DNA of 64,000 nt from Bilabrum cf. latius (lineage: Eukaryota). How positions within the stretch are numbered: position 1 is the first letter of the stretch; the number at the start of each line of letters is the position of its first letter. The DNA is taken from NCBI GenBank assembly GCA_965178125.1, contig OZ237753.1, positions 806,001 through 870,000 of the forward strand, read 5' to 3'. A program made the position numbers and the translations under genes. The notes under the pieces are model-generated. The model was not told the origin of the DNA. It did no database searches and saw only the letters and a program-made list of their open reading frames with translations. Shown here one piece after another: positions 18,347 to 51,471 of the stretch.

Positions 18347-18379
<33 letters not shown>

Positions 18380-20948: not shown

Positions 20949-23231
20949 TTAATGAATTTCGGCTTGCTATCGCTCAAGACTGCCATTCTCCTATCTACTG
21001 TAGCCCCCCTGAGGCTCCACGCACTCTGCAGCGGCCTCACAGCACGCAGCCAGTCCCAGGAAGAGCCCCCGCGCCCAGCCATCGCCGTTCCCCATCCCAC
21101 CGCCCGAATCCCCCGATGCCCCGCCCCCGCGCCTGGACCCCGCACCGCCTAGGGTTTCATAACCAGCACCCGCCCTACCCCTCCCGCCCTGTTGTTCCCT
21201 GGCAAGCTCCGCCTCGCGCGCCCTCCGCGCCCTCGGAGCCAGCCGCGGCGACACCATCATCCTCCGCAGCTCCCCCCGCCCGACCCCTGCCTCTGCGACG
21301 GACAGAGAGCTCCGCGCCCTCTCCAGCAGCTCCAGCACGTCAGCGAGCAGGGCGGGGCCCAGGATGTGCGGGGGCACCAGTCCCCTCGAGAGCGGGCCCA
21401 CACCGGGCCGCCCGCCCACTTTGCCGCTGCCGCCAGCAGCAGCACTGCCCTTCCCCCCCCCGTCCCCTTCCCCTTCCCCATCGCTCCCGGTCGAGTCGCC
21501 GCTTCCATCCCTGCGACTGTGCCCCGCCCTGCCCCCCGCAGCACCTCCCACGCCTCCTGCCTGCCCCACGGCCTGCCGCTCCAGCACGCCCTCCGCCAGT
21601 GCCGCGGTCATCTGCGCGATGGGCTCGTCGGGCCCGTCCACCCCGCACGCGTAGTCGATCGTGTCCACGAACTCCTTCATGCGAGGCAGCACGGCAGTCT
21701 CGAGCGACTCCAGGATATGCGCGTTCGCGTCCCGGCTGCGATCCAGCTGGCCCGCAAGCCCCATGGCCTCCTGCCGAGCTGCCATGCGCTTCCTCTCGTG
21801 AGACCCGGCCTGCCGACGCACCTCCTCCCGCTCGCGCGCCAGGCTCGCCCTCTCCTCCTTCACCTTCCTCTCCGCCGCCAGCAGTTGTTCCCTGGCCCCA
21901 CGAGCCCTGGACTCGGCCCCAGCCAGCCGGCCCCGCGCCGACTCGCCCTCGGCCCGCGCAGCCACTAGCTCCCCCTCCAGCCGGCCCACCCGCACCCGCA
22001 GCTCTTCCAGTTGTTCCCTGGCCTCTCGTTCCCCTGCCTCCGCCCTGCTCGCCCTGCCCTCCGCCGCAGCCGCCCGGGAGTCCGCCTGCGCCGCCGCATC
22101 CCTGGCCTCCCCCAACTCGGCCCTGAGCCGGCCCTCGGCTTGTTCCCTGGCCGCGGCCCCCGCCCCTTTCGCCTCTTTTCTCGCATCTTGCGCCTCTCGT
22201 TCCGCCTCCTGCATCCTGACCCGCATGGAATCCCGCTGCCTGGAAGCCTCCAGGAGCTGCTTGGCCATCGCGTCTGCCTCGGCCTGCTTGGACCTGAGGG
22301 CCAGCTGGGCCTCCCTGCCCCTGTCCGCCCGCTCGCGGAGGGAGGACGCCTCTGCCGTGGCCGCCGCCAGCTTGCCCCTGGCCTCTGCCGCCTCCTGCTC
22401 CGCCGCTTGTGCCCTCGCATTCGCCTCCTCTGCCCGAGCCTCGGCAGCGTCTGCTCTCTGCGTCGCCTCTCGCCTCGCTCGGTTGGCCTCTGCAAGCACG
22501 CCCGCCGTGTCTTCTGCCCTGCCCGCCTCCCGCTTGGCCTCTGCCTCTGCCATGAGCACCCGGCGCTCCAGCGACGAGAACTGCTCCGATCGATCCCGGG
22601 CACGTGCCTCAGCCTCGTCGGCGCGCTGGGACTCCGACGCCTGGCGCTGGCGGGCCGATTTGAGCTGTGCCCTGAGGGCCTCCATCTGCCCCGCCCCGGA
22701 CCTGCTGCTGGTGATCGACTCCTCGATCTGCGCCTTGAGCGCGTCCACCTGGGACTGGAGGGCCTCGCACTGGGAGCGCAACTGCAGCACCTGCTCGTCC
22801 GCCCTAGATCGAGCTGCTCGCTCCTCCTCGGCACGAACCTCCGCGCGGGACAAGGCTTCCTTCACGGCCGCCTCTGAGCTTTGGAGCCGCGCAATGGCGT
22901 CTGCGCTCGCGGCCGCCTCCTTGGATTCGCCGGATGCGCCTCCCTTTGCGGCTCCTTCCTTGTCGGCAGCCTGGGCCCGAAGCGCAGCCACTTCGTCCTG
23001 CAGCGACTTCTGCTGAGTTGTAAACTTAGAAATCTGCTCTGCCATGTACTTTCGAGCTTGCTCGCGCACCTGCTTGAGCTTGCTATCCTTCTTCAACAGA
23101 GACGCGCGCAGCGTTGCGAGCTCTGCATCCCGTCGCCTGTTCTCTTGAGCTTCCTCGCGGAGTGCATTCAAGAGCCCCGGCCTGTCCAAGTCATTCCACT
23201 TCCGTTCCCTTGCTTCATCCAGGGTAGACAT
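20949..23231 (-). CDS. Long coiled-coil protein (~760 aa)
   Basis: ATG 23231, heptad-like A/E/R/Q-rich sequence. After ...GGYSR come TAG 20991-93 and TAG 20967-69, then TAA 20949-51 (ENGSLER[Q]QAEIH*). Confidence 0.75.
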
Positions 23232-23473
23232 GGGTTCGGGCCGACCCTGCTCAACGACTCTCGGGCCGGCAGCCTTTCACGGCCAACTGGAAACGATTTT
23301 ACCACCGTTCAACGAAACTTCAACAGCGTTATTATTTGCTTGCAATGTTTTCTCTGTTCCTTCGGGTCTAAGGCGAGTGGTGTCGGAAAACATCGACATT
23401 GCCAGGAGGATTCGGATCCATTTTCATTTGCTTGGTTCGTTCGCACCGATCTTATGCTACGGCAAGCAGCGAA

Positions 23474-26038
23474 ATGCAGAGTATTGAATTTTTGATTGCT
23501 TACTAGCAACAGCTCCGCGAGTCCGGGGATGTAGCGGCTATTGATGCAATAGTGGTGGAGGCGAGCCAGCTGGCCGATTCAGTAGCCCGCGTTTTTGAAA
23601 CGAGTATTGCCCAACAGTGGGACACTGGAGCGCTTGATGATCTCTATGTGCGTGTTTCTCAGTGGAGTCGTCGTGGCGATGCCTACGCGGGCCACGCAAA
23701 GCAGGCGGCTGAGAGCGAAGGAGGCATAGACACAGCCCCAGGCCTCGCAATTGCGGCAGCAGTGTCACTCTAGGTCTCTGATCGATTGTCAACGTTGGTG
23801 AATGATTTCTTACGGCGTAATCCACGCGATTTGTGGAGGATGGTTCACCCAGTCTCCGATGCCATGGGCCGCTTAGCACGCGTTGCGGCATCGTGCTGGA
23901 CCAATAAGGAGATGCATTCCCACAGTGCAATACTAGCCGAACATGCCTAGTCAAAAGGCATATCATGTTTTGTGTTGAAAGACTGGGGTTGGCTTCTTTG
24001 CACTAGCCGCCCCCGCACCTCCAAGCTATCGATTTCGGACTGCCTGAGCACTTGCTGCTTTCGACTGGTAGATGCAGCCCACGGGCTGCGGCGCAAGCGG
24101 GACGAGCACGCAGAGCCTGACGATACTGAAGCATAGCTAGCCATCCAGCATAGCGCAGCCTGCATGGCCCGTGCCGTGGTGCTGTGGAGTATCGCAGCCT
24201 CCCACGGATTCCATCCCTCCCGAGGAGTGCCTTGGCAGGACTTGCTTCCGAATGCATCCACACAGCGCGATGCGCATGGACGCACAAAGCAAGCAAGGTA
24301 CACGAGTGCATTTGTCAGAGCTTTGGCCCCGCTGCGGACCGTGCAGCGGGTACTACTGCTCGCTGAATCTCTGTTTCGGGAGCAGCTGCTCGTGGGCGAG
24401 CATGCGGCCCACGCAGGCCGGTTGCAACCTCAGGCATGGGCTGTGGCCCAAGGTGGTCTGCTATGGTTGCGGAGGATCATACGAGGGGGGGATGGCGCGG
24501 GCGGGAGCGGTTCCGCTGGCAGTGCTGGTCTGCTGTAGGTGGACTGGGACAACCTGCCGGGGGCTGTGGCGGAGCAAGTGAAGGGGCTGTGCGAGGAGGA
24601 TGAGGACGAGGACGAGGAGCGTATAGATCGAGATGGTGAAGCTCAAAGTAGGGCAGGTGCTTCTGCGGCGATGTCGCGCATATCCCTGCCACTCGATCTA
24701 GCTGCCGAGGCGGGTCCCAGCAGTAGTGCTAGTTTGGGTGTACCGGCGGTGCCTGGTGCATCAGGGACTGCCCAGCGAACTACATCAGCAGAATAGCCAT
24801 CTGCTAGACCAAGCAAGGCAATGGCCGACGATGGTGGAGAGGTGGTGGATGCTGGTGACGATGACGATGCTACAGACTACGGGTCAGGCATGGAGGACGG
24901 GGAGAAAGTGGAGAATGCTGCCATGCCCAGCCCGCACGAGCCAGCCTAGTCTATGGCTCCGTCGTCTGCTCCATCGGAAGGAATCGGCGCGGCCTAGGTC
25001 GACTCGGGTGCAGCTCCGGGGCGTGGCGGGCCGCAGGCAGGGGACGAGGAGGCGGCGCTCGGCACCAAACGAACCCGCAGCAGCACCCGACCCACTGCTG
25101 CCATGCAGGCAGAATCTATCGCGATGAGCCTCGGGCTGTCCCAGGCCGAGCTGCAGGGGGCCAGGGAACAATCCATGGCCATGCGGGAGGCCATGCGGGA
25201 GGGTGAGTTGGAGGGTGAGTTGGATGATCTGAAGGACGAAGGCAGCTACGGCGATGGTGAAGATCTCGATGGGTCTGGTGATGGCATCAGCAAGGGCGGT
25301 GACGGCTCCATGGCTGGTGGAACGGGTGGAAGAACAGCGACGGGCGATCAGTCTGAGGCACAATGGCAGCACGCTAGTAGGGGTGTGCCTGTGCTGGGCG
25401 CGGTGCTGTGGCGGTGCTGTTGTTGGCTGCTCGCTGATGCTGAGCGGGTGCTGGCAGTTGAGCCTGCCGACGGGTCCGAAACCACCCATGGATCACGTGA
25501 GGGTGAGAGTGAGGGCGAGGGCCAGCAACCCATGGTGGAAGAGAAGTAGGGTGGTCGAGTGGCTGCAAGCAGCGGCGCTGGTGATGACAGCAGCAGCAGT
25601 AATAGCAGTAGCAGTAAGGTGAATGATGCATAGGCAGCATCAGGCAAAAGCCGCCGCAGTGCGATGCAGCGAGGAGCGCTGTTCCTTGCGGTCTCCGTGG
25701 GTGCCTCTTTGTTGCGGTTTGCCATGCAAAGCGACGCCAAAGTGAAGAAGCGGGTGCCCTCTAGCCGCAGGATATCTATGTCAGCACATGCGGCTGGAAC
25801 TGGGACTGGCGCTGCCGCAGGCGAGGCAGGTTCCAGCCATGCAGCAGTAGAACGGCTTTGGTGGAGCATGGCAGTTCCGAGGTGGGCAATGTGTGTGGGG
25901 CCCGTGCCTCCACGGCCCGTTTGGCGTTCGGCTCATGGGCGTGATGCCGGGCAACCGACTGATCAGCAGAGGGACAGGGGTGCCGAACTGGTGGCTGAGC
26001 TGCGGGCTGCGATGGAGGCATGGGTGCGTGAGCACTGA
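23474..26038 (+). CDS. Hypothetical protein (~854 aa; 10 in-frame TAG)
   Basis: Single frame from ATG 23474 (MQSIEFLIAY[Q]QQLRES) to TGA 26036-38. Interrupted only by TAG at 23504, 23771, 23948, 24134, 24536, 24794, 24947, 24995, 25547, 25631. Confidence 0.72.
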
Positions 26039-26213
26039 TCCAGTGGATGGCATGACGATGAAAGATCCTGGATACAGACGAGACTTGGGTATTTTTCCTG
26101 TAGCAACATCCCCGATAGACACACAGTCTTGTCAGTCTCGTGCCCAGCTATCTAGGCGGACGACCTTGCCGACAACCAATGCAGAATGGAGTGGTAGGCG
26201 CGACCCAGGCTGG

Positions 26214-28019
26214 TCACTCGTTGACCTACGCCCGAGGAACGAGGGCGTCGCTGCGATCCCCGGTGCACGGCGGTGGACAAAGCCCATATGCCACACAGTA
26301 CGCGTCGGCTAGCAGCATGGACGCGAGCGTGTCCAGCGCCCATGTCACGAGCCCGACCGTCACGTCGCCCGCCTCAAAGACCGACCCGACGATGTCGCAC
26401 ACCCACATCGCCGGTGGAATTGCCTGGCACATCTCCATCAGCCGCAGCGCCACTTCAGCTGCTTCGACCTCGCCCGCGTACAGCTTCGCCTTGATGCTCT
26501 CGAACTTGTCCAGCAGCGCCAGTGCACCCCTGCACGTGTCGCACCAGCCGTAGCTGGCCCTCAGCACGAGGTCGCCTGGAGGTGGCGGAATGCCCAGCAG
26601 CGTTGCATTATCACAAGGCATGCTGCATCCTCCCGACGGAGACCTGCACAGGTACGGCAGGCAATCGGCGCAGTGGGGGGCGGCGGCACCTGGGTCAGCG
26701 CACCGGTAGCACTGGGTAGACGGGAACGTGCTGCCGTTCACGGATCCGCCGCAAGAGAAGCACTGGGGTGGACAGAGCTGGTCGCACTGCGGGAAGTTGG
26801 TAAAGCCGGGGGCACACGTAGTCATGCATTGTGTCCTGTTTGTTGGGTGGCAATCCCCGCAGTTGGGCGCGCACCTCTCCGTGCAGCCAGACGCGGTGTT
26901 GGTGTACCCCGGCTTGCAGAGGGTGCAGTTCCCCGGGGTGACGACGGGGGTAGTTCGCGGAGTGTCCCGTGTGTCACTTGCCGCAGCGTCTATCTGAATC
27001 TCGAAGTGGCTGGATTTCCCCACTTGGTTCTGTGCCTGGGCTGACCCAGCCAAGCACCTGCAGTTGCCCTGGCATCCCTCTGGGGGACAGGCCGGCTCGC
27101 CCGCCACTGCCGCCTGGCAGATGCCCTGGGGCCCGCACCAGGTGAAATTTTGCAGAGTGCAGTCTTCACACGACGAAACGTCCTGAAACAAGATCGGGTT
27201 GATGCAGCCGCAGTCTGCCGAGAGCACCCCGAGGTCCAGACTGCCAGGGCAAGTTGTTCCATTGACCGGGCGGCCCACGTCCGGGGAGTAGAAGCACTTG
27301 CCCGTAGATGGGCACCATGCATTACCGCCGCAGTTGCTTGTGCACGAGTCGCAAGTTGTTAAGTCCTCGAAGGGATTCGTGCAATCGCACTACCCGTGAT
27401 CCGTGGTCCATGCGCCCTTGGTTCCAAGCTCTGGACAGCTAGTGTTGTACGGTTGCGATGCGTTGCCAGCAAAGCACTGGTTCTTAGATGGGCACCATCC
27501 GTTGGAGTTGCAGTTGTTGGTACAGCTATCACACGTTGTAAAGCTCTCAGTTGGCTTCAAACAGCCGCAGTCTGAGCTCGACGTCGTCCAGACTCCCTCA
27601 GTTCCACTTGCTGGGCAAGATCCGTTGAACGGCGCTCCATTTGGCCCGTAGTAGCACTTTTTCTCGCTGGGACACCATCCCAATCCGTCACAGCTGCCAC
27701 CTATGCAAGAGCTGCATGTATCGAAGCTGGTCGCTGGGTTTATGCAGTCGCAGCTTCCGTCTGATGAGGTCACTGGCGGCCCGTGGTTCTGGTCCGTCTC
27801 GCAGTACGCTGTATTGTCTTGACACTTGCCAAGCGATGGACACCACTGGCAGTTGCCACCGCCTTGCTACGTGCATGAAGAGCAGCTCGAGAGCCCACCG
27901 CACTCGTCGTCCGGTTTGGACGCCCGGAGATTGATCTAGTTCGTGTTTGCCTACCAGTGGTCCGTTTGAGCAACTGTACAGCATACAGTCGATGCAAGCA
28001 AAGCAAGCATCCGATACAT
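26214..28019 (-). CDS. Secreted Cys-rich protein: PSI-like repeats, EGF/furin-like repeats and a C-terminal saposin-B-like domain (~601 aa; 5 in-frame TAG)
   Basis: Signal peptide MYRMLALLASTVCCTVA at 28019; five CxxC...WC...C repeats; CTLCKPGY and CAPGF-type repeats; C-terminal CDTC...MCQAIP...C...YCVAYGLC. TAG 27951, 27936, 27867, 27390, 26226; TGA 26214-16. Confidence 0.8.
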
Positions 28020-28164
28020 TGTGAACGAATGGATTTGCGAAATATAGCAGGTCGCAGGACAAGCACAGTCGCAGCCGTTCTCTGGTTCCGCCGGCGCCGC
28101 AACATCACCCCGCGTTGTGGCGCCGGCGACAGTGCACTATCCTATGCGCCCAAGGTTTGCGCCA

Positions 28165-29039
28165 TCAGTGCCATGCCTGCCTCTTCTTGGAGCCCTGCCT
28201 CCGGCCAGCAAAACCCCCCTCTGCAGCAGACAGCGCTTGCTCGTGCACCGCGCTCCTATGCCGATACTCGCGCAAAAGGTGGTCCTGGCTGTACGGCGAC
28301 ACGTAATCCCGTGCCACGTCCATGCCTCCCGATCCCACAGACCCGCCGCTGACCCGAGACGAAGACACGCCGCTGCCAAGCCCTCCTGCATCAGCCGGCC
28401 GGACACCCCTGCCTCGTCCCCTGCGCCGGGACACTGCCCCCCCACGGTGGGGGCCTCTGGACCGTGACCCGTCTTCCTCGCGACCCCGCCCCCTCCCGCG
28501 CTGCTAGCTCCTAGGCCCCCCGAAATCCAGCCCCATGGGCAGCATGCCATACCGGGCCATCAGCCGCAGCGCATCTGCGTGCGAGGCCCCAGCCGCGGCG
28601 GCCTCGTCCAGGCTACGGGCCACTGCCTCCTGCCACGAGGCGCGCGCTGCGTCCTCTCCGCCAGCTGCGGCATCCGCTGGCCGACTGACTTGCCGGTCCC
28701 CTTCACCGCCAAGGCCGTCCAGGCCTTCGATCGGGCTCAGCGAACGTTCGTCCCAGCTCGCCTCGGACCCGTCCGTTCTTCTCTCATCCCTCCCCTTCCC
28801 ACTGCCCTTGACCCTGTTTGTTTTCCTCTTCTTCTTGTTTGCTCCCAAAGTGCCCGCGCCCGCCGCCCCCTGGTTGACCCCCCGGTGCCCGAGCCTTCGC
28901 CTGGCCTCCCTCAGCGGGTCTCGCAGCGGGCTTGGCTCCACACCGCCCGGGTCAGCCCCAGCACGCGCGATGGCGGCGGCGGCGTCCTGCCGCGCCCGAC
29001 CCCGACCTAGGAACTCCGGTGCCGGCCTGGCCATGCCAT

Positions 29040-29073
<34 letters not shown>

Positions 29074-30948
29074 TCTCGACCCCACAGAGCCTTGATACGA
29101 CCCTGGCCCTGGCTTGTCGATGACGGCCCCAGGTGTCCCTGTGGCTGTGCGGCTAGGGGCGCGGCCGTAGCTGCCCCCAAGCCCCGCCCCCGCGCCAGCT
29201 GCTGCACCACCATCGACAACCTCCTCGCCCCCGCCCTCGAAATCGTCATCGTCGGACTCCGAGTCGTCGTCCTCGCTGGCGTCAGCCGCGCTTGACGCCG
29301 CGTTCAGTTGCCGCGCGTGCTGCAGCAGCCGAGCCAGCTGCTGGTTCCCACCCGCCTAGCTGTCTCTGACCCCCTTGTTGCCCATGCCTTCATTCTCACC
29401 GGCCCCAGCCGCTCCCGATGCCTGCACCTCCCGCAGGAGCCCACCAGCCATCGCGGAATTGATCCTATCGTGCTGAGTGGCCATGACTACTCCCCGTGGT
29501 GGCTTAACTTCATGCAGCCCGCCCCTGGCCCCCTCCTTTGATGTTCCCTCGGAGCTATCGGGAAACGGCTGGCCGTAGTCTCCCATAGACGCAGCCGACT
29601 CGATGCTCCTCCGCACCTCGCCTCCCCGCCCGTCCCTGTCCTCGTAGCTCGCGCCTTCACCCCCTTCACCACCCGCACCCGCACCTGCCCCGCCAGCGGC
29701 CGTCCTGCTCCTCTGCTGAGCGGCCAGCTCCCAGGGCAGCGGCGGGGAGGACGAGGACGGCAGCGCCCCTGCTTCCTGGGAGCGCCGCACCGCACTTGAG
29801 GCCGGCCTGTCCTCCCCGTGGTCCTCGGCAGGAGGGCCCGAGCCTGCGATAGGGGAGGCGTCGAGGACACCCGCACCGCCGCGGGACGCTGCCTCTCTTA
29901 GCATGCGCTGCGCGGCAGGGGACACAATGGAGCCGCGGCCCACGGGAGCGGGCTGCACGGGCACGCTGCGCCGAGTAGGGGGCTGCTGCAGGCCAGTCCT
30001 ACGGCCGCGGTGCCCCGGCGGCGGGGGCTGCATGGCCAGCGGGGATGTCGCGACTGCGAAAGGCAGAGCTGTGATGCCCACCCTCTGCACTCCTCGGAGC
30101 GTGGAGGCACCCGCAATGAGAGGATCTTCGTCACCGTCGTACAGTACACCCGCAACACCGCCGGCACCCCTTGCGATGCCAGCGGCGGGCAGAGGTACAG
30201 ATCCCCGAGCCTCATCTTCATCCTCCCCATCGCCCTCGTCCTCTTCCTGCATGCGTCGCTCGGCTGCCTTCCTCCGTGCCCACCTGCGGGTCCTGTCAGC
30301 TGCCTTGGAGGATTGGCGAGCGCCTTTCGCATTCGGGTCGGCTGGCACGCCGCTTTGCATTGCTCCGTCATGGCTTCCTGCCATCCGCTGCTGCTGCTGC
30401 TGCTGCTTGCGCCGGACTGTCTCCAAGTGCCTCTCTCTTGCTCGCTTGTGCATGCGCCGCTGCTGCTCATCCCTTAGCCCCTCTTGCTGGGCCACCTGCC
30501 TCCACCGATCCAGAGGCATCCCGTTCGTTGCTGCCGCCACGAGTTCCTTGACCTCCACCAGCACCGCACGGCAGGGACCCCGGCCGTACATGGCGTCCGT
30601 GGCGGGCGTGCCTGCCATGCGCACCAGAAGGCCCCTCAGGCCCGCCTTGAACTCCAGCGCGTACCGAGCCACCGCCTCGTCCGACACGTCCTCGTCCTTC
30701 CGACCGCTCTCCACGGGCACTGGCACCAGCCCCTGCCCCATCTCCAGTAGAGTGCCCACCCCCTGCGCCAGCATCACCATCGTGGCCTGTTCCAGTACCT
30801 GCCCAAGCCCGCGCCGGGCCTCCCTTCGCAGCGTTCTCTGGACGTGCTGCAGCGCCGCGTCGCACCGGGGGTTTCCCGTCAGTGCGAACTCGAAGGGAAC
30901 CGTGTGTTTGGCTTCCGGGCTCTCCGCCCTGGCGTACGACTCTTGCTC

Positions 30949-31001
<53 letters not shown>

Positions 31002-33169: not shown

Positions 33170-33200
<31 letters not shown>

Positions 33201-35661: not shown

Positions 35662-36316
35662 AGCAAAATAAACTTTCGTCCTGGCTCAATGAGTACCGGA
35701 GATTTTCGGCTCGAGGTGCTTGAGTGATTCGATGCTGCGCTCCTTCTCGGTCGGTGCTACACAGGTGTGCCTCGATGGGGCTTCACAGTACAATCCCACT
35801 CTTGCCTGGAGCGACTTGCTTCGAACACTATCCACTACTAAATAGGCAATGCTTCAGCACGGGGCCCTTGAAACCTTGTAGAGGGTCAAGGCGGTCTGAA
35901 TGAAATCAGTTTTGTTACTACCTTAACTACACGCAACATGGAATGCGACCAAACAGAACAACGGCTGAGTGGAGATGCCCAGAACACCCTTGCTTTGAAT
36001 CGCTATTCATTATATCCTACAAACTATCCATATGCCACGAAATCATTGAAAAAACGTGGGATGGCCGTTTCAGTCCGTACGAATCATTAAATGTATTAAC
36101 GACTCCGAATTACGATGGGCACACGATCATTTCTGCCTCATACGTGCACTAGTGAGCTATAAGTAGTTGGAAATTCGGTGCGTTTCGATCTAATATGAAC
36201 GATCTAAACTGACATCGGGTTCTTGAGGGAAGAGGTACACGCATTGCTAAATCGAAGGCACTTGCATCAAGTGCAACCGCGTACTACGTCCTGCAATTGC
36301 TCCATCATCCGCGAAA

Positions 36317-38339
36317 ATGCGGCATCGAGGGAGAGTTCTTCGGCTTATGGACTTTGCATCCGCTTTTTTGGACCCGTCCAAGGCTAGAAGCAGGCGGCTC
36401 GTAGGAATCGACTACGGGACAACCAAGGTTGGCTTTGCGTTGTCTGACTACGGAAGAGGCACGCTTCGCGACCTTCGATCATTCAGAATCAAGTCGCAAC
36501 GAGGTGAACGTGAGACGACCGCCATGCTAACTTCGCTCGGCCAACAATCGCACTTCCAGCTCACTCTGCCACTAGTGTTTCATGTTAGTTCCCGCAGCGG
36601 CTCACCTGGAAGTCTCAGAGTATCTGCAGCACCTGCTGCAGCACCATGAAGCTAACGGGGTGATTATTGGGTGGCCATTGGATGGCCATCGCCAGCCTAC
36701 GCCGATGTGCTCGTACATATCAGATTTCGTCAGCGTCGCACAGTCCAAAGGGGGTCTCTTGGCTCCGATTGCACTGTGTGACGAGTACGGCAGCACGGTT
36801 GAGGCCAGAGACATGCTGCGTGCGCAGGCGAAGGGGTCTCCGCTCACCTCTCTGGGAAGCGAGCACGGCGACGGGCACTTGCTCGGGGACGTGCTCGCCT
36901 CGCGCAGCACCCCATCTTCGAGGCCATGGGACGGCCGGAAGACTCCGCGGCAGCCTCGATTCACCCCAGAGAGGCAGAAAAAAGCGGACGGTGTCGCCGC
37001 TGCGGTAATCCTGCGGCGGTTCGTGGGCGAGCTGCGCCTGGCGGACCGCTTCCTGGAGGAGCACCGCCAGCAGCGGGTGAGAGATGCCGAGGAGGAGGCA
37101 GCGATGGGTCTGGGAGAGTAGGAGGAGGCAGTGCTGGAGCAGGATGAAATCGAGGAGGAGGGGGAGGAGGAGGAGCGATTGGGGAAGATGCGCTGGAGCA
37201 CAAGAGGGGCACCTTTGCTTGGCGGGTCGGACACGGGAAGAAGCCCCCTCGCCGGTGCCAGTCCACAAGTGGGCGGGTCGGACACGGGAAGAAGCCCCCT
37301 CGCTGGTGCCGGTCCACAGAGGGGCGGGGCTTCCCAGCCGGGCGTGGACGTGCTGGCCGCACTAGGCATCGATGGAGGTTCGCTGGGTAGCGGAGAACGT
37401 TCGCTTGACAGACAGGGCCTGCGCGCTCTCCTGCACGATGCCGCCCGCTCCGATCCGTCGCCCTCCATTGCGCCCGATGCCTCGCGACCGGAGGACCCAG
37501 GGTGGTCGAGCGACGACGCCCCCGAGCACCGGGAGGCCCTGCGCAGGGTACTCTCCAGCGACACGAGCGGGGAACACGGCACCAACGCGGGGTCAGGCGG
37601 GGGTCATGACCCCGAAGACCCCGTGGCGCTGGCGAGGGGCGCCCGCAAGCGGCTGGGCAAGAGGGCGGCCCACGAGCGGAGGAGGCTCATGCGGGCCGCG
37701 AGACAGGCGGGGGCACCAGTGGTGCTGGCGCAGGCGGGGCTCAGTGGACGATCCGGAGCCGAAATGACCTACGCGCAGGCGGCCCAGGACGCGCACGAAA
37801 GCGGGAGCATCGCGAGGGGCGGCCAGTCCGTGCACTCGGAGCCGAATAGTTCCCAGGCACGGCCGGTAAATGATGCAGACGTGGTTGACCTCAAGGGGCG
37901 GGGGAGAGTGGCGGTCGTGGGGGGGGCTCGGCTGCGCGTGCCCTCTGCGAGCGAGAGGAGGATGGAGCGGCTGGCGGGTGCGGCTCGGGTGGTGGTGGCG
38001 TCTGCTGCGGATTCGGCGGTAGGTGGCTCTGAGGCTGGCGCTGGCGGTGGCTCGGGAGATCCCGATCCATCGGGCGGTCGTGCGCAGGCCTGGGTGGAGG
38101 GGCTGCTGGGGAGCGGGGACACGCCCCACGCGCGTGTGCTGGAGGAGGTGCTGCGGAGGGAGTCGGAGCAGTTCCGGTCTAGGCGGGCCGCGAGGCGGGA
38201 GCTGCGGCAGAGGCGGGTGCCGAAGTGGCTGTCTGCGGGGGCCATCCACGGCGAGTTCGAGGAGGGCGAGGACGGGTGGGGCTCGGCGGGTGGGGGAAGG
38301 GGAAGGGGAAGGGGAAGGGGAAGGGGCGGTGCCGATTGA
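36317..38339 (+). CDS. YqgF/RuvX-family (RNase H-fold) nuclease with a long C-terminal extension (exons 36317-36503, 36598-38339; 1 in-frame TAG)
   Basis: LVGIDYGTTKVGFALSD, VIIGWPL, LCDEYGST, ADGVAAAVILRRF are YqgF motifs. 94-nt GT-AG intron 36504-36597; TAG 37119-21; TGA 38337-39. Confidence 0.85.
37221..37322 (+). repeat. 51-bp tandem duplication (two copies of GGSDTGRSPLAGA(S/G)PQx)
   Basis: GGCGGGTCGGACACGGGAAGAAGCCCCCTCGC starts at both 37221 and 37272. Confidence 0.85.
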
Positions 38340-39118
38340 GTGTGTGCATGCTTTGCAGACGGCGGGAGGCTGAACAACTGGGTGCGTCTCGCTGCACATC
38401 AAGCTTCGAACTGTGTGTGTTGCAAGCATGCATGCGACTGCAAAAAAATGGCCTCGGAATAGAATTAGATCTTGGCGTACTCCGAGTCGAAACAGAACTA
38501 TTTTTGCTCGAGATCTTGCTCCACAGAATTCCGTGCAACGCCACGATTAGCAGCAAGAACTTGATTGTGAGAGAATCGTGTTAGGTTGGCGCTGGTGTGT
38601 TGTTTCTGCATCAGTCTTGCCTAAATGACAGAGATTTTGTGTCGCTCATTGCCGGCACCTCAACTAGCGAGACGCCGAATCGATGTGCCACGGCTTCGTC
38701 GCCGCTATATATCCCCTTGGTTTGTGGCATAAAACTGTATTACTCCGTGCTAGCTTCATTGCGGATTCTGTGCTGAGTCTTGTGAAGAGGTATTCTATGC
38801 AGTGGAAATTTGCCGGTGCTGTCGCTGGGCCGTAGTATCGCTGTACTCTTCAATATTAAAACAAACCTAAATTTAGTTGTTAAAGGTTGCAAAGATTTCT
38901 TATGCGTTGGGATGCGCTGGACCACTTTGACATCTCGTATCTGGCCAATGGGCTTCGTCTTCATCATCGCAGACATAGAGCTTGGCAGCATTGCAGGCAC
39001 TCTCAAGGAAGCTACTTGTCTGCATTACAAGCTAGATAATAATTCTGACTGTATCTGACGGCAGTGGGCTTGACAAGAAGAATCAGCTTTGCCCTTCGGT
39101 CTCGACGCGGTGCCAGCC

Positions 39119-42100
39119 ATGGATTCGTAGGAGATTGGTGCAGCTGGCAGTTCATCAGGGTAGTCCACGGCTGACGATGTGATTCATTCAAGTCGAGTCC
39201 CTGCAGCTACTGCCATGATGGCTTTAGACGAGGCTGTGGGCCTGGACACTCACGACACCGACGAAGCGTCAGATGGCCGCGGCCCTGGACATCCTTCCAG
39301 CCCAGGTGAGTCTCATTTGGATGTTGGGTTGGCAGTCTTGCAAATGTATGTGCTTGATTTACGCTGCTTTCGTGTCAAATGCGGCACAATGGCAGAGGCC
39401 GACCTAGTAGCGTGTGGTTTGCCTGCAACTGCGCGGCGCCGGATCCGCAAGGAACTTGTTCCGGCAAAAAAGCGAACACGTTGGGTGGGTCCACACACCC
39501 GGGTCGTGGGTCCCTTGCGATTGTGCGAATTCTCGATTACTGTCCAACCTAGATCATTTGTTTCTAGGACCTTGTGATCCTTACAGAGATAGTTGGATTG
39601 TTCGACCTTGTGAGGATGGTGCTTGAGTGCTGTTGCGGCGTTACGAGAGGGCACTTTTGTCGACCGCGAGTCCATCGAGTCTCGTGTGCGCGGTGCCCAT
39701 ACATGCGGCGTGAAACAGCGTCTTGCTGTTTCTAGACTGTATGTTTTATTGCAAGATATGCAGCATACCCCCTTTTTTTCGTTTATTGGGCTGGGCTGGC
39801 GTCTGACGGAAAGCGAGCACAATCGGGGAATCGCTGGATTTTGCTAGCCTTGTTGCGTGTGCTCGCTCGTTGGACCTATCCCGCAACAGACTCTACTGCA
39901 TATACATGTGGAAGCTTTGGCTTGTATCTTTGCCGTGTCTCTGCTGCTCTAGAATGGCTACACTAGGTGCACCTCGGCGAATCGTCGACATTCAGTGTTC
40001 GCCGGTTCACGCATCCATGTCCCAGCGTGCTCTTTTCGCTTTACCCCATCACAGATTCCACTGACTTGCGCAATTTTAGCGGAGGGGCTTCGCCGGGTGC
40101 TGAACACCAGGATAGGCACAACGCGCCCAGTCCAGCCGCACTCGGAGGAACCCAGGCTCGTCGAAGCGCCTCCCAAGGGCGGTCGACGGCGGCATCTTCT
40201 GCTAGCTCACGTAGCACGTAGATTAGAATTCCTGGAGCTGGATCGATTGCTCTTCGGATCTCGGCCCCGAAGGAAGGGGTTGTATTCAAGGATTCAGAGG
40301 CGTAGCGCGCGTATTAGTCTGCGCAGGCGGGTGGAGGAAACGCAGCACTCCCCCTGACACACGGCCTGATTCCACACAACTCCCCAAAACCTTCGAACTC
40401 TCGAAGTTTGAGCCCGTCTTCGATGGACGGTGACCTAGCAATGATGAACGAGCCGGCTAGCCAAGGACAGGCGGCGGCGCTTGGAAGCAAGCGAGGCCGT
40501 CCAAACGACAGCTCAGCCGGGTTCTAGCCATAGGCACAAAGATATAGGCAAGACGTCAGTGCTGGTGGTAATGGATTTGCAAGTGGTACGAATCCGTACA
40601 TGATGGGGATGTCGGCTGGCATGTCAGCTGCTTTCTAGTCGGGCGGCTTTCCCTAGCATCAGTCTGGAATGATGTCTAGCAGCATGCCGCATGCGAGCAT
40701 GGCAGCATCCGGTGGGTTTGCTGGCGGTATGGCTGCGATGGGCATGCCCGGTGGTGGCATGGGAGGGCCGGCTGATTTGGGCGATCTCCGGATCCGAGTC
40801 CCACCGGGCGGGAGCTCAGGACAGCTAGGGGGCATGCAGTCGATGGGCGCGGGAATGGGCATGGGTGCGGGAATGGGCATGGGTGCGGGAATGGGCATGG
40901 GCATGGGAATGCCAATGTCTGGAAGCATGGGTGGGATGGGAATGCCGAGCAGCAACGGGGCCAGCCACAGTATGGGTGGCGCGGATGGGGGGCTGGTGGG
41001 GGGCCATGCCCCCCCCATGGGGGTCGGCCAGGATGGGACTGTGATGGTCCCCCCGGGGTATGTGGCGGTGGCAGACGGTCGGGGAGGTGTCCAGCTCCTG
41101 CCAGAGTCCCAGGTGATGCAGGGGGGCGGCCACGGCCAGGGGCCCTCGATGGGTGGGCCTGGTGGGGCAGGCGCTGGCACAAGCATGGGCGGGATGGGAA
41201 TGGGGATGGGGATGGGGATGGGAGCCGCGGGATACAGTGGGCCCATGACGGGCATGGGTGGAACAATGAATGGCACGATGGGTATGGGCTCTGGCATGGG
41301 AATGGGAATGGGCATGGGCACTGTCATGGGCATGCACGGGCAAGGAATGCAGGAGGCTTTGCACCCTGGCATGCTGCCCCAGCCGCAAGCCATGGGCGAC
41401 TTCGGCCTCAGCCCTGGAGGCAGCAACGCCGCACTGGAGCTGGCAAGGCAGATGCACCTGGGGAATGCAAACCCGCACGCGCTGGCAGCCGCCATCGCGC
41501 CCACTCCCAAGCCATCAGGCATGGGCATGGCTGTCGGCGGGGGCATGGCCCCAGGAGGGGGGGCGCTGGGCAGCCCGGGGACCATGGGTCTCCCCGGCCC
41601 CAGCGCCACTGCCCAGGAAGCGGTGGCTGGCCTCAACATGCTGCACAGCGCGGGCAGGTAGGAGGCCGCAGCGATGGCCGGGCAAGCTGCGGGAGGGCAG
41701 GGAGGTTCCTCGTTGTCGTCGTCATCCCAGGCTGCGTCGGGAGGCACGAGGAGGACGAGGGGCCGCCGACGGAGCAGTGCAGCAGACCATGCTTTTGCGG
41801 AGGACGAGGACGAGGAGGAGGAGGAGGACGAGGAGGAGTACGCGCCGTCGGGGAGGAGCAGGGGCAGGGGCAGCAGGGGGCGAGGGAGGGGGCGCCGCAA
41901 GTCAGCGACTGGTGGGGCGCGGGGGAGGGGCAGGGGAAGGGGTAGGGGGCGCGCCGCCACCGTGGACCAGGCCGCACCCGTCGTGGGCATTCCTGCTACG
42001 GGCGTAGATGGTGCGCTCCATCAGCAGCCTCAGCCGCGGGGCAGGGATCCAGCTGCTCGTCGGGACCGCCTGGCGGATTCTGCCCAGCTGCAGACAACCG

Positions 42101-43044
42101 AGGAGCTCTTCCAGGTCACGCTTCCAGGGGGCAGGCTGGAGCTGTACTTCCCCGTGCCTCCCGAGTACGTGAGCGTGCCCCCGCCCCACCGTGACGAGCA
42201 GCGGCGGCTGTCGTACGAGAGCACGCTGAAGCTCAAGCAGTGGATGGCGAGGCCTGAGCACTGGGTGTTCCCCTACCCCTCGGACCACACTAAGCGGGAG
42301 CTGTGCGAGCTGTGCAGCATGGACATGACGCAGATCTCCAACTGGTTCCGCAACGAGCGCAAGCGCATTTGGCTGCCTCTCAAGCGCAAGGCAAAGAAGA
42401 GGTGGGACCTGCTGTCCGACCAGGAGCAGGAGAGGCTGCAGAGGCTCAACTACGGGAAAGCGGCCCATTTGGCGAGCAGCCGCCGGCAGGACAACCAGAC
42501 AACGGACCACGTGTGGGGCCGCTCCGAGCTCTCCAGGTCAAAGGCCGCGAGCACGAGCAGCAGGCAGGCAGCCGGGGCCGTGCAGCCCGCCGTGCCTGCC
42601 AGTGCCACCCCCACGCAGTCCGGGACCAGGGTGCCGAGGAGCACGGCCGGCTCCGGCTCCGGCTCCGCCAGCGGGAGGAAGAGGAGGGGCGGCCGGCGCT
42701 CGATAAGCACGCCCAGCGCAGGGACCCAGTCGGACGCGGGTGAGACCCCGCCGCAGGCCCTGGGCAAGGCGGGTGAAGTGGGGGCGGGGGCGAGGGAGGC
42801 TGCGTCGACGGCGGGGGGAGCTGGGGCGGGCCTTGCGGAGGTCAGCAGTGGGTCTGCACCATCCGCCGGTGTTTAGTCCAGCACGCACGGGTCGAGCGAG
42901 CTGGGGGGCGGCTTGGACATGCAGAGGGAGGCCACGCCCACGGACGGGCCCGCCTCGGCGGGCGCTTACGGGGAGCGGAGCAATAAACAGGGAGATGCGT
43001 CTCCATTCGAGCCCGGGCCGGGAGTTAGCGCGCAGAGCATGTGA
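39119..43044 (+). CDS. TALE-class homeodomain transcription factor with a Met/Gly-rich region (exons 39119-39305, 40055-43044; 11 in-frame TAG)
   Basis: Homeodomain RRLSYESTLKLKQWMARPEHWVFPYPSDHTKRELCELCSMDMTQISNWFRNERKRIW (~42202-42375) has the TALE PYP loop. The frame is open from 40055 through TAG only; donor CCAG|GTGAGT (39306) is phase-compatible with acceptor CACAG| (40054). TGA 43042-44. Exon 1 is less certain than the rest. Confidence 0.85.
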
Positions 43045-43395
43045 GTGATCCGGCCAAGCTTTCCCTGGGTTTTATGCACAGATGTGCGCACTAGCGTCGC
43101 GGTGTGCACTGTGAATTGATCGTTGAAAGAGTGGAACTGTCTGCAGACTGCAGAGCTTGGTTAGAAGTAGCGTGCGGAACACTAGACAACCGTTGTGTTT
43201 ACGAGGCAATCATGGTGAAAGTGGGGGCTCCATCCAGCCTTCTCTTGTTTGCGGGGTTCCACTGGCAGGCTAGCGACTCTTGCAGTGCGCCTGTCTACGG
43301 TGTAGATAAAGTACATCCTGCTTCATGATCCCAGAATGATTCTGGATCCCATGAACTCTACATTTATTTGACTCGTCCAGACAGGGCAACATTCT

Positions 43396-46300
43396 TTACG
43401 ACCTGTCCATCCTCGGCTGCCGGGGCGAGAACTCGCTCACTCCGGACACCCCGCTAAAGCTCATGTCGCCGCTGCTGTCCTGCTGCTCACCCGCAGCATC
43501 CCCTCGCCCAATGCCGGGAATGCCTTCTTCGTCCAGATCTCCAACCGCCAAGCGCGGTGTCTGCGCGACGGGCTGTGCACGAGCATGCGAACGATGGCCT
43601 GCAGCAGCGATACCCCCGCCCGACAGCCGGCGAGCCTCCCCACCCGCCGCAGCACCGCCACTCATCTCCATCGCATCGTCCTCGTTCTCATCCTCAGGGT
43701 CATCGTCCTCATCTTCGTCCTCTGACATGTCCATGGACTCATAGTCGTCCTCATCCTCACCCTCCTCTACCTAATGGCCCATCTCGACCCCCCACCCAGC
43801 GCCTCCTAGCGACTCCTCCAGCCCAGAGGCCGCCCCTTGCAGCGCAGACAGGCCAAGCCCAAGGCTGCTCCTGCCCCTTCCGCCTCGCCTGCCCGATCCA
43901 GGGCCAGGTGTCCCAAGTGCCAGGGCTCGAGAGCTTCTGAGCCCCTCCAGAAACGCAGCCTCCTCCTCCTCCTCCTCCTGCCCGCCAGGATTCACACTCT
44001 CGACCTATTTGCTCTCCGAGGCGGACGCGCCCCAAGGACCCGACCGCCGACCACGCACCCCAGGTGTCCGAGCAGGTTCCCCCTGTGCCGCTCCGCCGCC
44101 ACTGATGCTGCCTCCCATGCCGCGGCCCGCAGATTGGTGCGTCCCACTTGCCGCATCACCCACTCTGCTGCTGTCGGCGCTGTCTCCAAACCCAGGAGGC
44201 AGCGGGATGCCACCCCTGCCAGCCCCTGGCCCTGCCCTGCCAGCCCCCGAGGGGGAGGCGTCCCCCATCGACGTCTCGATCTCATCCAGCAGCCTGTGCA
44301 TCCCTGCGGGCGTGTGTGCGTGCGCCCCTCTCGCAACGGACCCTGCTGTTGCTGATGCACCTGCCTCCGTGTTTCTGTCACGGTAAGGCGTGTCTGCTGG
44401 CTGCTTCGCTCGCCCTCGCCCTCGCCCTTCAGGCATCGCGCCAGAACTCCTACCCTGAGCTGTGCCTCTCTTGTCCTCGTGTGCCTGGATCTCCTGCGAT
44501 GCTATCTTGTATAGCACCTCGTCAGTGATGCGCTCTGTGTACGACTCGCCGCTGCCTGCCCCACTGGCCGCCTGCCCGTCCTCCCTGTTGCCGCCCAGTG
44601 ATTCTCGCGCCAAGCTGCTCATGGCCGAGGCCGCTGCTCCACCTCGCCCCCTCCTCGCACCTCCCATCATGCCGGTGCTCCCCAAGAGCGCGCCATCCTC
44701 GCCGAGTGCGAGGGCCGCATCAGCCGCGCTAGCACCCAGCGCCTGCTCCGCCGACCGCAGCGCGCCATCAGCTCCACCTGGCACGGCCACATCGTCGCTA
44801 TCTCCCCCCGCCTCGGCGCTAGGCCCACCTGCACCGCCGCTTGCAAATTCTCCTTCTTCCTTCCCGTCCCCGCCGTGCAGCCGCTGCATTGCACGGTGGA
44901 GCAGCACCCTGGCGAGAGAGCTCGCGGGCGCCAGGGCCACAGCGCCGTGCAGCACCGCAGCCGCGTCCCGTGCCCGTGCCAGCAGCAGCAGCACCAGCCC
45001 AATGGAGCACATGATGCTGGCCCGCTGCTCCGCCTCTCCCTGTCCCGCAGTCGCCCGTCCTCCCCCCTCCCCAGTTCCGGTGGGCGCCCCACGCATGACC
45101 AGAGAGGACGCGGCTCTTCGAGCGGCGAGTGCATCCCCCGCCACCACCATCTCGTCCACAAGCCCGCTGCCCTCCGGCCCGTACCCCAGCTGCATGAGAC
45201 CCGCCGCACCCTCTGACCACGCTCCGTGCCTCTTGACCAGCCCGAGAGCGTGCTGTAACACGATCAGAGAGGCATGCAGCCGACCCGTGCTCCGGAGACA
45301 GTGGCCCGCCAGCACGTAGGTGGGCACCCAAGCAGACCGCAACCTGGGAGACAGGGGGTCGATGAGCCCTAGCGCGACCCGTGCGTGCGCAAGGGCCTGC
45401 CTCGGCCTCCCGTGCCTGTATGCCAGCGCGGCAGACTCGTGGTGGCAGGCGGGATCCATGGGGCCCATGCGGCGCGCTCGCTGCAGCAGCAGTGCGGCCA
45501 GCCCGTCGGACCTCACGGCCGAGGCCTCCTTGGCCAGCGCAAGCAGGGGCACGTGCCACTGGGGCGCCAGTCGGCTGGCTGCCCTGTACGATGCCTGCGC
45601 CTGCTCTGACTCGCCCCCCACACTGAGCGCATGCCCCAGCAAGACCCACGCCCGCGCCCTCGACCCGTCCTCCCTGAGACTGTCCCGCAGGCTACAGGCT
45701 GCCAGCGAGGACTCCCCCGAGACCAGGTAGTACAGCCCGATGGTCTCGTGAGTCAGAGGGTCCGATGGGGTCATCCGGCCCTTGAGCACCGCAAGGCCGT
45801 GCAGCTGGTCTGTCCTGGCCCCCGCCGCCAGCGCCTCTGCGTAGACCTGCGTCCCTTCCCTGTGCAGGGGGTCCTCACGCAGAGCAGCCTCCGCATGCTG
45901 TGCCGCCCTCCCTGCGTCCATCACCTCCAGGGCGTACTGTGCCAGGAGGGCCCGCACGGGGGGACAGGCCCGCAGCATACCGCCCTCGATCTCAGACAGG
46001 GCCTCGACAGCCTCGATCCCGTGGCCTGTGGCCCGGCCCGCGTGCAGCACCGCCTCCGTGTAGTGGGCCATGGGCCTCGGGATGGCTGGAAATGGCCCCC
46101 GATGCGCTGCACCTGTGCCTCCTACGAGAGGCGGGGACGCCAACGACCCCGCTGGGTCCGCTGCCCTGGCTGCAGATGCAGGCGTGCGATCCATCATTCC
46201 TCCCGCCGCCGCAGAGCGAGGGGCGGGCGATTGCCACGACGAAGCAGCCTCGCCGTGCTGCTCGCCGCCAGCGTGCCCTGCCTGTCTCTACCCCTCCAGC

Positions 46301-47301: not shown

Positions 47302-47516
47302 TCGCTTCTTTAATCTATCAGGGTGGATATCGACTATTTACTTGCGATTATATGACAAAATAATGAACTAAAGCGGAAAATATTGCGGTAGGCACCCTTT
47401 TGTTGCAATCTGAGCAACGGCATGGAATACTCGTCACACTCAAACCAAAAGCATTGCATGGTAATGCAGTTCGCAAGATCCAACCCGCTGCTTCATTCTC
47501 ACAGAACCTGCTGGCA

Positions 47517-51302: not shown

Positions 51303-51471
51303 TGCGCGCGCAGCTAAAATCAAGTCAAGTGCAAGGCTGGGGCGCTTTGGGGGGCCAATGGATTTTTTGGAGTGCCTGCTGAGCTGCCGCGAACCTCGCA
51401 GAAAAAGGTTGCAACCGGTCCGGCGGCTGGTCGTTGTCGGGACTAAAATCCAGTGGTAGTTGGTAGCAAGC

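What the first reader, a model, noticed from the sequence alone, without database searches (positions are those of the whole stretch)
20949..43398. UAA appears to remain a stop: UAG and UAA are decoupled
Seen: no in-frame TAA in roughly 19,000 reconstructed codons against ~100 TAG, although CAA is used. Two genes end at TAA (coiled-coil protein 20949-51; CDC16 43396-98, followed by a drop to AT-richer sequence) and 16 end at TGA. Known: nuclear reassignments usually change UAA and UAG together (ciliates, hexamitine diplomonads, some ulvophytes); UAG-only reassignment is rare (e.g. the fornicate Iotanema spirale, UAG=Gln). Inference: this needs an eRF1 that reads UAA/UGA but not UAG, plus a CUA-anticodon tRNA-Gln.
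Basis: partly seen in the sequence, partly recalled or inferred. Interest (0 to 1): 0.88.

Follow-up and report, generated by a model that had tools for sequence, protein, structure and literature searches.

The report
UAG reads glutamine, UAA still stops
This GC-rich protist DNA reads the stop codon UAG as glutamine while keeping UAA and UGA as stops, a rare split of the UAG/UAA pair so far reported in only a few lineages, most of them ciliates.

Summary
In 17 long ORFs (18,464 codons) there are 102 in-frame TAG, 0 TAA and 0 TGA. The same sequences carry 28 and 40 TAA in the two other frames. CAA, AAA and GAA each make up 20% of their NAA+NAG pair, so 25-33 in-frame TAA would be expected if TAA were a synonym of TAG.

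TAG means Gln:
- It sits at the conserved AFQT glutamine of AGC kinases.
- It is Q in two near-identical public proteins.
- It swaps with CAG/CAA in 4 well-aligned columns of a 57%-identical CDC16 orthologue on metagenome contig L001.

One TAA stop is well supported. The CDC16/APC6 gene ends at TAA 43396-98. GC3 falls from 0.90 to 0.45 there. L001, which also carries in-frame TAG, ends the conserved tail with TGA two codons earlier.

The second TAA end (20949-51) is less sure. Two TAG and an AT3-rich tail lie just before it.

tRNA-Gln(CUA) and eRF1 could not be checked because no genome is held. This is a code like NCBI table 15 in an unplaced, non-ciliate-like organism: a new member of a known kind.

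The parts
43396..43398 (-). TAA stop codon of the CDC16/APC6-like gene
   Evidence: This is the first non-TAG stop of the 1301-codon frame. GC3 is 0.90 before and 0.45 after it. The L001 orthologue ends with TGA two codons earlier. P0122, a 91%-identical public fragment, ends at the same residue.
43396..47301 (-). CDC16/APC6-like gene: 1301 codons, 4 in-frame TAG, 0 TAA
   Evidence: The best solved-structure match is human CDC16/APC6 at E=3.4e-17. TPR and ANAPC3 hits come from Pfam.
43771..43773 (-). In-frame TAG (codon 1177) that aligns with CAA (Gln) in L001
   Evidence: Codon-level alignment of the window and L001 CDC16 genes. This column sits between gaps (HQV against HQT).
43417..43419 (-). 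CAG (Gln), 7 codons before the TAA, that aligns with an in-frame TAG of L001
   Evidence: SEFSPRQPRMDRS in the window against SEFSPGqARME in L001. Residues after the TAG are conserved, so a TAG near the end is read through.
20949..20951 (-). TAA, the first non-TAG stop of the coiled-coil ORF; a less certain gene end
   Evidence: The next in-frame TAA lies 28 codons on and the next TGA at 20517-19. The preceding 13 codons are AT3-rich.
20949..23231 (-). Coiled-coil ORF of 760 codons, with TAG at 20991-93 and 20967-69
   Evidence: No relatives were found.
7697..7699 (+). In-frame TAG at the AFxT motif of the AGC kinase domain
   Evidence: It aligns with the Q of AFQT in S6 kinase structures. The site is Q in P0008.
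7829..7831 (+). In-frame TAG at ALALxYLHE of the kinase domain
   Evidence: The site is Q in P0002 (99% identical) and in P0008 (97%), both public proteins presumably called with a standard code.
3299..9157 (+). DEP-START-AGC kinase gene: 1952 codons, 6 TAG, 0 TAA, ends at TGA
39610..40054 (+). GT..AG intron of the TALE-homeobox gene; the ORF part upstream of 40055 is not all coding
   Evidence: The joint 39609>40055 is seen in runs X5 and X6 and not in DNA run X1. The spliced contig piece 40055-40879 keeps 7 TAG codons with 0 differences.
36510..36597 (+). 88-nt GT..AG intron of the RuvX/YqgF-like gene
   Evidence: The joint is seen in X5, X6 and X7 and not in X1. Splicing restores the N-terminal GIDYGT part of the protein.

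Best explanation
The window is nuclear DNA of a GC-rich (64%), intron-poor eukaryote that uses a code like NCBI table 15: UAG is read as glutamine, and UAA and UGA end translation, with UGA much the commoner.

Shown:
- UAG stands in frame throughout real, transcribed genes at about the density it has in the other frames.
- UAG corresponds to Gln in relatives.
- UAA is never in frame.
- UAA closes at least one conserved gene at the place where a relative closes it with UGA.

Inferred from how such codes are known to work (Panek et al. 2017, PMC5304391, passages seen): a tRNA-Gln with anticodon CUA, probably a one-base mutant of a tRNA-Gln(CUG) copy, reads UAG but cannot pair with UAA; no tRNA-Gln(UUA) exists; and eRF1 has lost or weakened recognition of UAG while keeping UAA and UGA.
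For: 1. Frame counts over 18,464 codons (frame 0 / +1 / +2): TAG 102/110/146, TAA 0/28/40, TGA 0/212/323.
2. CAA, AAA and GAA are 19.8, 20.2 and 20.3% of their pairs. A synonymous TAA would therefore give about 25 cases, or 33 when summed gene by gene. The probability that all 102 TAR codons are TAG is 1.7e-10.
3. TGA-bounded frames hold no internal TAA. 0 of 292 TAA against 42 of 828 TAG lie between coding-like open flanks.
4. TAG corresponds to Gln at the AFQT site of AGC kinases. It is Q in P0002 at 1 site and in P0008 at 2 sites. Three L001 TAG align with window CAG and one window TAG aligns with L001 CAA.
5. TAG is kept in RNA: 8 TAG codons lie under spliced contig pieces with 0 differences there, so U-to-C editing is not the explanation.
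6. CDC16 ends at TAA, with GC3 0.90 before and 0.45 after. L001 has 8 in-frame TAG and 0 TAA in 1178 codons, although 34% of its CAR codons are CAA. It ends the conserved tail ...SGDMSFSGVSGVSEFSP... with TGA two codons before the window's TAA. P0122 ends at the same residue as the window protein.
Against: - Only 2 of 17 ORFs end at TAA, and only one of them has outside support.
- The coiled-coil ORF has TAG 15 and 7 codons before its TAA. The 13 codons after the first of these TAG are AT3-rich (5 of 13 G/C-ending, against 0.78 in the body; only 3 of 748 windows of that ORF are as low). That gene may really end at TAG.
- TAG is mildly enriched in the last 15 codons (4 seen, 1.41 expected, P=0.055).
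- No poly(A) site, tRNA gene or eRF1 could be seen.
- The sample is 64 kb plus 4 kb, so a rare sense TAA elsewhere in the genome is not excluded. Zero observed gives a 95% upper bound of about 3 events, roughly 3% of TAG.
- P0122 was presumably called with a standard code, so its shared end does not by itself separate a stop from a sense TAA.
Confidence: 0.8

Rival explanations
1. Ambiguous UAG: UAG is Gln inside genes but still ends translation in some genes, depending on context as in Condylostoma or karyorelict ciliates. UAA and UGA are stops as well.
For: In the coiled-coil ORF, coding-like GC3 stops at the first of two late TAG (20991-93) rather than at the TAA. TAG is not depleted near ORF ends and is if anything enriched: 4 in the last 15 codons against 1.41 expected.
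Against: - In L001 a TAG 5 codons before the stop is followed by residues conserved with the window, where the codon is CAG. That late TAG is therefore read.
- Ambiguous codes are reported to deplete the dual codon near gene ends (PMC11687900, passages seen); here there is no depletion.
- The case rests on a single gene.
- A former TAG stop that is now read through to the next stop explains the same tail.
Confidence: 0.1
2. Ordinary UAR=Gln code: both UAA and UAG are Gln, and TAA is merely too rare to be seen in a GC-rich genome.
For: TAA is the rarest of the three triplets overall: 141 and 153 on the two strands of 64 kb.
Against: - A-ending partners make up a steady 20% of CAR, AAR and GAR codons. 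This gives 25-33 expected TAA against 0 seen.
- The same coding sequences hold 68 off-frame TAA.
- L001 has 34% CAA and still 0 TAA beside 8 TAG.
- CDC16 ends at TAA where the relative has TGA.
Confidence: 0.04
3. UAA is unassigned: it is neither sense nor an efficient stop, UGA is the only working terminator, and the two TAA ends are mis-drawn gene models (an intron or a missed exon).
For: 15 of 17 ORFs and the L001 gene end at TGA. The letters at the CDC16 TAA (G|GTCGTAA) can be read as a weak splice-donor look-alike (my reading).
Against: - No joint is reported at 43396 in any of the four runs, although the bin has depth.
- The two observed donors are GTGAG, not GTCGT.
- Only about 350 nt lie between the convergent stops at 43044 and 43396, and they are non-coding in composition.
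- The relative ends two codons away.
Confidence: 0.03
4. Artefact: the TAG-bearing frames are pseudogenes, unspliced introns or RNA-edited sites, and the code is standard.
For: Four TAG of ORF 39379-43044 do lie in a stretch that is intron or 5' leader.
Against: - TGA- and TAA-free frames of 445-2498 codons cannot arise by chance at off-frame TGA rates of about 1.1-1.7% per codon (212 and 323 in 18,464).
- Pfam domains span TAG sites.
- Spliced contigs keep the TAG.
- A 57%-identical relative keeps one open frame with its own TAG.
Confidence: 0.01

Closest known systems
Iotanema spirale (Fornicata): UAG=Gln, with UAA and UGA as stops (Panek et al. 2017, PMC5304391; passages seen)
   Same: It is a non-ciliate eukaryote in which UAG alone is reassigned to Gln, no in-frame UAA is found, and UAA and UGA are the terminators. 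The predicted mechanism, tRNA-Gln(CUA) plus an altered termination system, is the same.
   Different: Panek et al. call UAA the dominant stop codon in both of their taxa (counts seen for exLh: 56 UAA, 15 UGA); here UGA dominates (15 of 17). In that paper Iotanema was studied from transcripts, whereas this is genomic DNA with gene context. Nothing links the two organisms: the best named kinase hits here are weakly stramenopile.
NCBI translation table 15 as reported in ciliates: Protocruzia tuzeti, Hartmannula sinica, Trochilia petrani (McGowan et al. 2024, PMC11687900; passages seen)
   Same: The codon table is the same: UAG=Gln, UAA and UGA are stops. UAG is not depleted near gene ends.
   Different: In those ciliates 93.5-100% of C-terminal alignments fall on UAA. 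This window is 64% GC, has 88-445 nt GT..AG introns and many genes on one 64-kb stretch. From my own knowledge, not a call, that is unlike typical AT-rich ciliate macronuclear DNA.
Rhizarian exLh (UAG=Leu) and Scotinosphaera (UAG=Ser), both with UAA kept as a stop (PMC5304391 and PMC11687900; passages seen)
   Same: UAG and UAA are decoupled. exLh was found as a passenger in another organism's data; here the same DNA is held by runs under three coded organism names.
   Different: The amino acid differs. Here every well-aligned TAG column is Gln.
Context-dependent stop/sense codes (Condylostoma, Parduczia, karyorelicts, Blastocrithidia)
   Same: A standard stop codon occurs inside genes. One gene here may end at the reassigned codon.
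   Different: In those codes the same codon routinely ends genes. Here 16 of the 17 window ORFs, and the L001 gene, run with no sign of an earlier end to a TGA or TAA, and a late TAG in L001 is demonstrably read.

Membership tests
UAG-only Gln code (NCBI table 15 type) | UAG occurs in frame inside genuine protein-coding genes | tested here: met
   102 in-frame TAG in 18,464 codons, about 98 after removing a non-coding 5' stretch. TAG lies inside kinase and other Pfam domains and is kept in spliced contigs.
UAG-only Gln code (NCBI table 15 type) | UAG corresponds to glutamine | tested here: met
   TAG sits at the AFQT Gln of AGC kinases. It is Q in P0002 and P0008 at the two kinase TAG sites. 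TAG pairs with CAG or CAA in 4 columns between the window and L001. Five further TAG columns fall opposite other residues (I, W, G, G, H) and three opposite gaps, all in poorly aligned or gapped stretches (my reading of the context lines).
UAG-only Gln code (NCBI table 15 type) | UAA is absent from sense positions | tested here: met
   0 of 18,464 codons in the window and 0 of 1,178 in L001, against 25-33 and about 4 expected. 0 of 292 TAA lie between coding-like flanks. Only 68 kb was sampled.
UAG-only Gln code (NCBI table 15 type) | UAA is used as a terminator | tested here: met
   CDC16 ends at TAA, with a composition step, an orthologue ending in TGA two codons away and P0122 ending at the same residue. 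The second case (20949-51) is inconclusive. No poly(A) or peptide data.
UAG-only Gln code (NCBI table 15 type) | UAG is no longer used as a terminator | tested here: inconclusive
   A late TAG in L001 is read through. The coiled-coil ORF, however, looks non-coding after its first late TAG.
UAG-only Gln code (NCBI table 15 type) | tRNA-Gln(CUA) present and tRNA-Gln(UUA) absent | not testable with these tools
   No tRNA gene in the window, no Rfam match and no genome held.
UAG-only Gln code (NCBI table 15 type) | eRF1 N-domain (GTS, NIKS, YxCxxxF) adapted to ignore UAG | not testable with these tools
   eRF1 is not in the window and no genome is held. Panek et al. report that the exLh eRF1 shows no obvious change in these motifs, so even with the gene the test may be silent.
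Ordinary UAR=Gln code (table 6 type) | Both UAA and UAG in frame at Gln positions | tested here: not met
   TAG 102, TAA 0. TAA ends CDC16.

The most novel reading that the evidence does not exclude
An undescribed, GC-rich, non-ciliate protist lineage acquired UAG=Gln on its own while keeping UAA and UGA as stops. At least three related taxa are already in public data: the window organism, a 91-97% relative in Logan contigs, and a 57% relative on a metagenome contig.

Its genes may still carry 'fossil' TAG stops that are now read through into short, UTR-like C-terminal tails ending at the next TAA or TGA. That would make it a genome-level system in which eRF1's discrimination of UAG from UAA, the origin of tRNA-Gln(CUA), and the aftermath of a stop-codon loss can all be read directly.
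Probability: 0.45. Interest if true: 0.75.

Novelty: new member of a known kind. Interest (0 to 1): 0.62.

Why it matters
UAA and UAG almost always share one meaning, and the few nuclear exceptions are the natural test cases for why. Panek et al. (2017) could only predict the tRNA-Gln(CUA) of Iotanema and had to wait for genomes.

Here there is assembled genomic DNA, with RNA-like runs and at least two relatives in public data. With the whole assembly, three questions become directly checkable: the suppressor tRNA, the eRF1 N-domain, and the genome-wide use of stop codons.

There is also a practical side. Standard-code gene calling shreds this organism's genes. The public proteins found here (P0002, P0122, P0123) are all fragments, and the three of their ends that can be checked fall at TAG sites or just after them. 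The lineage is therefore largely invisible to protein databases.

Tried and rejected
- tRNA scan and Rfam on the window: nothing found.
- Sequencing runs: no RNA holder is listed on record.
- Read laying on 27500-47450: only contigs came back. They gave introns and showed that TAG is retained, but no transcript ends and no poly(A).
- Protein searches: the N-terminal half of CDC16 found 1 unrelated bacterial TPR protein among 8000 scored candidates. The coiled-coil protein found none.
- Kinase-domain scans of genome contigs found 9 loci, all bacterial kinases at 25-38% identity. Scans of viral contigs found none.
- The 3' flank of L001 holds no recognisable neighbouring gene.
- Cluster look-ups gave no organism names, so the organism is not placed. 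'Stramenopile' rests only on two named kinase hits: Ochromonadaceae sp. at 62% over 40% of the query, and Blastocystis at 45%.
I dropped that step.
- Five literature searches found no paper on a GC-rich non-ciliate with UAG=Gln. The library lacks most subscription journals, and I did not open supplements (for example the S-tables of PMC11687900), so an existing description cannot be excluded.
- RNA editing, pseudogenes and an intron-only location of TAG were considered and rejected (see rival explanations).


Full report
**What the window is.** The 64-kb window is 64% G+C. Read with the standard stops it breaks into 55 ORFs of 200 aa or more, none longer than about 760 codons. Read with TAG as sense it resolves into 17 long ORFs of 445-2498 codons on both strands.

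These are eukaryotic genes:
- a DEP-START-AGC kinase, a nitroreductase-domain protein, a Cys-rich protein with a weak plexin-repeat (PSI) match, and a RuvX/YqgF-like protein;
- an FG-GAP (integrin-alpha-like) membrane protein, a TALE homeobox protein, a TPR protein and a beta-lactamase-family protein;
- an LMBR1-like protein.

The best solved-structure match of the TPR protein is CDC16/APC6, at E=3.4e-17. Public runs hold the stretch. In three of them, contigs skip 36510-36597 (88 nt, GT..AG). In two of them, contigs skip 39610-40054 (445 nt, GT..AG). The DNA run X1 does not skip either. Splicing the first intron restores the N-terminus of the RuvX-like protein. The DNA is therefore transcribed, intron-poor nuclear sequence.

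**Checking the observation.** Over the 17 ORFs (18,464 codons) the counts in frames 0 / +1 / +2 are TAG 102/110/146, TAA 0/28/40 and TGA 0/212/323. TAG is about as common in frame as out of frame, whereas TAA and TGA are wholly excluded from the reading frame. CAA, AAA and GAA make up 19.8%, 20.2% and 20.3% of their NAA+NAG pairs. A TAA synonymous with TAG should therefore appear about 25 times, or 33 times when TAG x CAA/CAG is summed gene by gene. The probability that all 102 TAR codons are TAG at p(TAA)=0.198 is 1.7e-10.

The ORFs were drawn with TAA as a stop, so I repeated the test two ways:
- With frames bounded by TGA alone, only 8 TAA are added. Five lie 9-35 codons upstream of the first ATG and three lie at or beyond the ORF end.
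- A scan that ignores gene models asked which triplets are flanked on both sides by 40 open, coding-like codons. The answer was 0 of 292 TAA, 42 of 828 TAG and 2 of 1278 TGA.

Four of the 102 TAG lie in the 5' part of ORF 39379-43044, which is intron or leader. This does not change the picture.

**What TAG means.** One TAG sits at the AFxT motif of the kinase, opposite the Q of AFQT in S6 kinase structures. The public protein P0002 is 99% identical to the window's kinase. It has Q at the second kinase TAG site and starts just after the first. P0008 is 97% identical in the kinase domain and has Q at both sites.

A search with the C-terminal half of CDC16 found P0123, and through it the 4,023-nt metagenome contig L001 (59% GC). 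One frame of L001 is an open CDC16 orthologue of 1,178 codons, 57% identical over 1,054 aligned columns. It carries 8 in-frame TAG and no TAA or TGA, although 34% of its CAR codons are CAA. In well-aligned columns, three L001 TAG face window CAG (ESEQAQAS/ETEqAQAA, IVLQHALGL/VVLqYALGL, SPRQPRMD/SPGqARME). One window TAG faces L001 CAA, in a column flanked by gaps. The other TAG columns fall opposite other residues (I, W, G, G, H) or gaps, in stretches that align poorly.

Eight window TAG codons lie under spliced contig pieces that show no differences from the DNA there. The codon is therefore present in the RNA and is not edited away.

**Is TAA a stop?** Fifteen ORFs end at TGA and two at TAA.

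The CDC16 case is good:
- The eleven codons before TAA 43396-98 all end in G or C, and the frame after it is full of A/T-ending codons.
- GC3 is 0.90 before and 0.45 after, like the TGA ends.
- L001 ends the same conserved tail (...SSGDMSFSGVSGVSEFSP...) with TGA two codons earlier.
- P0122, a 91%-identical public fragment, ends at exactly the window's last residue. That shared end cannot by itself tell a stop from a sense TAA, because the fragment was presumably called with a standard code.
- No joint is reported at this place in any run.

The coiled-coil case (TAA 20949-51) is weaker:
- TAG codons lie 15 and 7 codons before it.
- The 13 codons after the first of them are AT3-rich: 5 of 13 end in G or C, against 0.78 in the body, and only 3 of 748 windows of that ORF are as low.
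- No relatives were found, and the one read-laying run could not cover this end.
- The next in-frame TGA is 432 nt further on, at 20517-19, inside or beyond what looks like the next gene's start region (my reading). Some TAA or TAG must therefore end this gene.

**An unexplained detail.** TAG is not depleted near ORF ends. If anything it is enriched: 4 in the last 15 codons against 1.41 expected (P=0.055). Two readings fit. Either these are former TAG stops that are now read through to the next TAA or TGA, which would also explain the UTR-like tail of the coiled-coil ORF. Or TAG still stops in some contexts. The late TAG in L001 is followed by residues conserved with the window, so it is read and not obeyed as a stop.

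**Mechanism.** The codon usage is shown. The machinery is inferred. Reading UAG but not UAA requires a CUA anticodon. Such tRNA-Gln(CUA) genes are known in Tetrahymena, Condylostoma and Spironucleus and differ by one base from tRNA-Gln(CUG). eRF1 must also stop competing at UAG (PMC5304391, passages seen). None of this could be examined: there is no tRNA in the window, no Rfam hit and no genome held.

**Comparison with what is known.** UAG-only reassignment with UAA kept as a stop has been reported for:
- Iotanema spirale, Protocruzia tuzeti, Hartmannula sinica and Trochilia petrani (Gln);
- the rhizarian exLh and some TARA ciliate MAGs (Leu);
- Scotinosphaera (Ser).

These come from PMC11687900 and PMC5304391, of which I saw passages only; I did not open supplements. 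The present code matches table 15. It differs in using mainly UGA as terminator, where UAA accounts for most gene ends counted in exLh and in the table-15 ciliates, and in a GC-rich, multi-gene genomic setting that does not look ciliate (the last point is my own knowledge).

The organism is not placed. Only two named kinase hits point weakly to stramenopiles, and cluster look-ups gave no names. Five literature searches found no description of such an organism, but the library is incomplete.

**Verdict.** One TAA stop is verified comparatively and the other is left open. It is a new member of a known, rare kind. Its value is that genomic DNA, RNA-like data and relatives already exist, so the predicted tRNA and eRF1 changes can be tested as soon as the whole assembly is examined.

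Noticed in passing
window 20967-20993, 14600-14617, 26214-26228; L001 about 3520-3537: TAG codons cluster just before stop codons: 4 in the last 15 codons of the 17 ORFs against 1.41 expected (P=0.055), and one more 5 codons before the TGA of L001. They may be former TAG stops now read through into short tails.
   Followed up: partly
window 51292-52629 and 52512-54845 (+): Two ORFs overlap by 118 nt in different frames. The second carries TPR repeats. They are probably one gene joined by a short intron or a frameshift, so the TGA at 52627-29 may not be a true gene end.
   Followed up: no
window 58153-58201; also 26036-26216, 43042-43398, 49161-49419: Convergent genes have stop codons only 44-352 nt apart, so their 3' UTRs must be very short or overlap.
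   Followed up: no
window 38566-40055: Besides the 39610-40054 intron, run X5 shows alternative GT..AG joints 38566>38973 and 39302>40052. This suggests a multi-exon 5' leader of the homeobox gene with alternative splicing.
   Followed up: no
30-60 nt downstream of several stops, e.g. window 43355-43365, 20905-20915, 58160-58172; L001 about 3590-3600: A TGTA-containing motif (TGTAG, TGTAC, TGTAA) recurs shortly after stop codons, behind both TAA and TGA ends. It may be a polyadenylation signal. No statistics were done.
   Followed up: no
window 13300-14000 (+): The FG-GAP membrane protein carries a long, nearly perfect SPST repeat stalk before its transmembrane segment.
   Followed up: no
whole window (runs): The same DNA is held by runs filed under three different coded organism names (A, B, C) in three studies. 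The organism may be a passenger (symbiont, parasite or contaminant) in some of them, as exLh was.
   Followed up: no
window 20500-20830 (-): A GC-richer stretch with an ATG and a GTGAGT donor-like site lies between the coiled-coil TAA and ORF 16149-20219. It may be that gene's first exon, since the first ~100 codons of the ORF score as non-coding.
   Followed up: no
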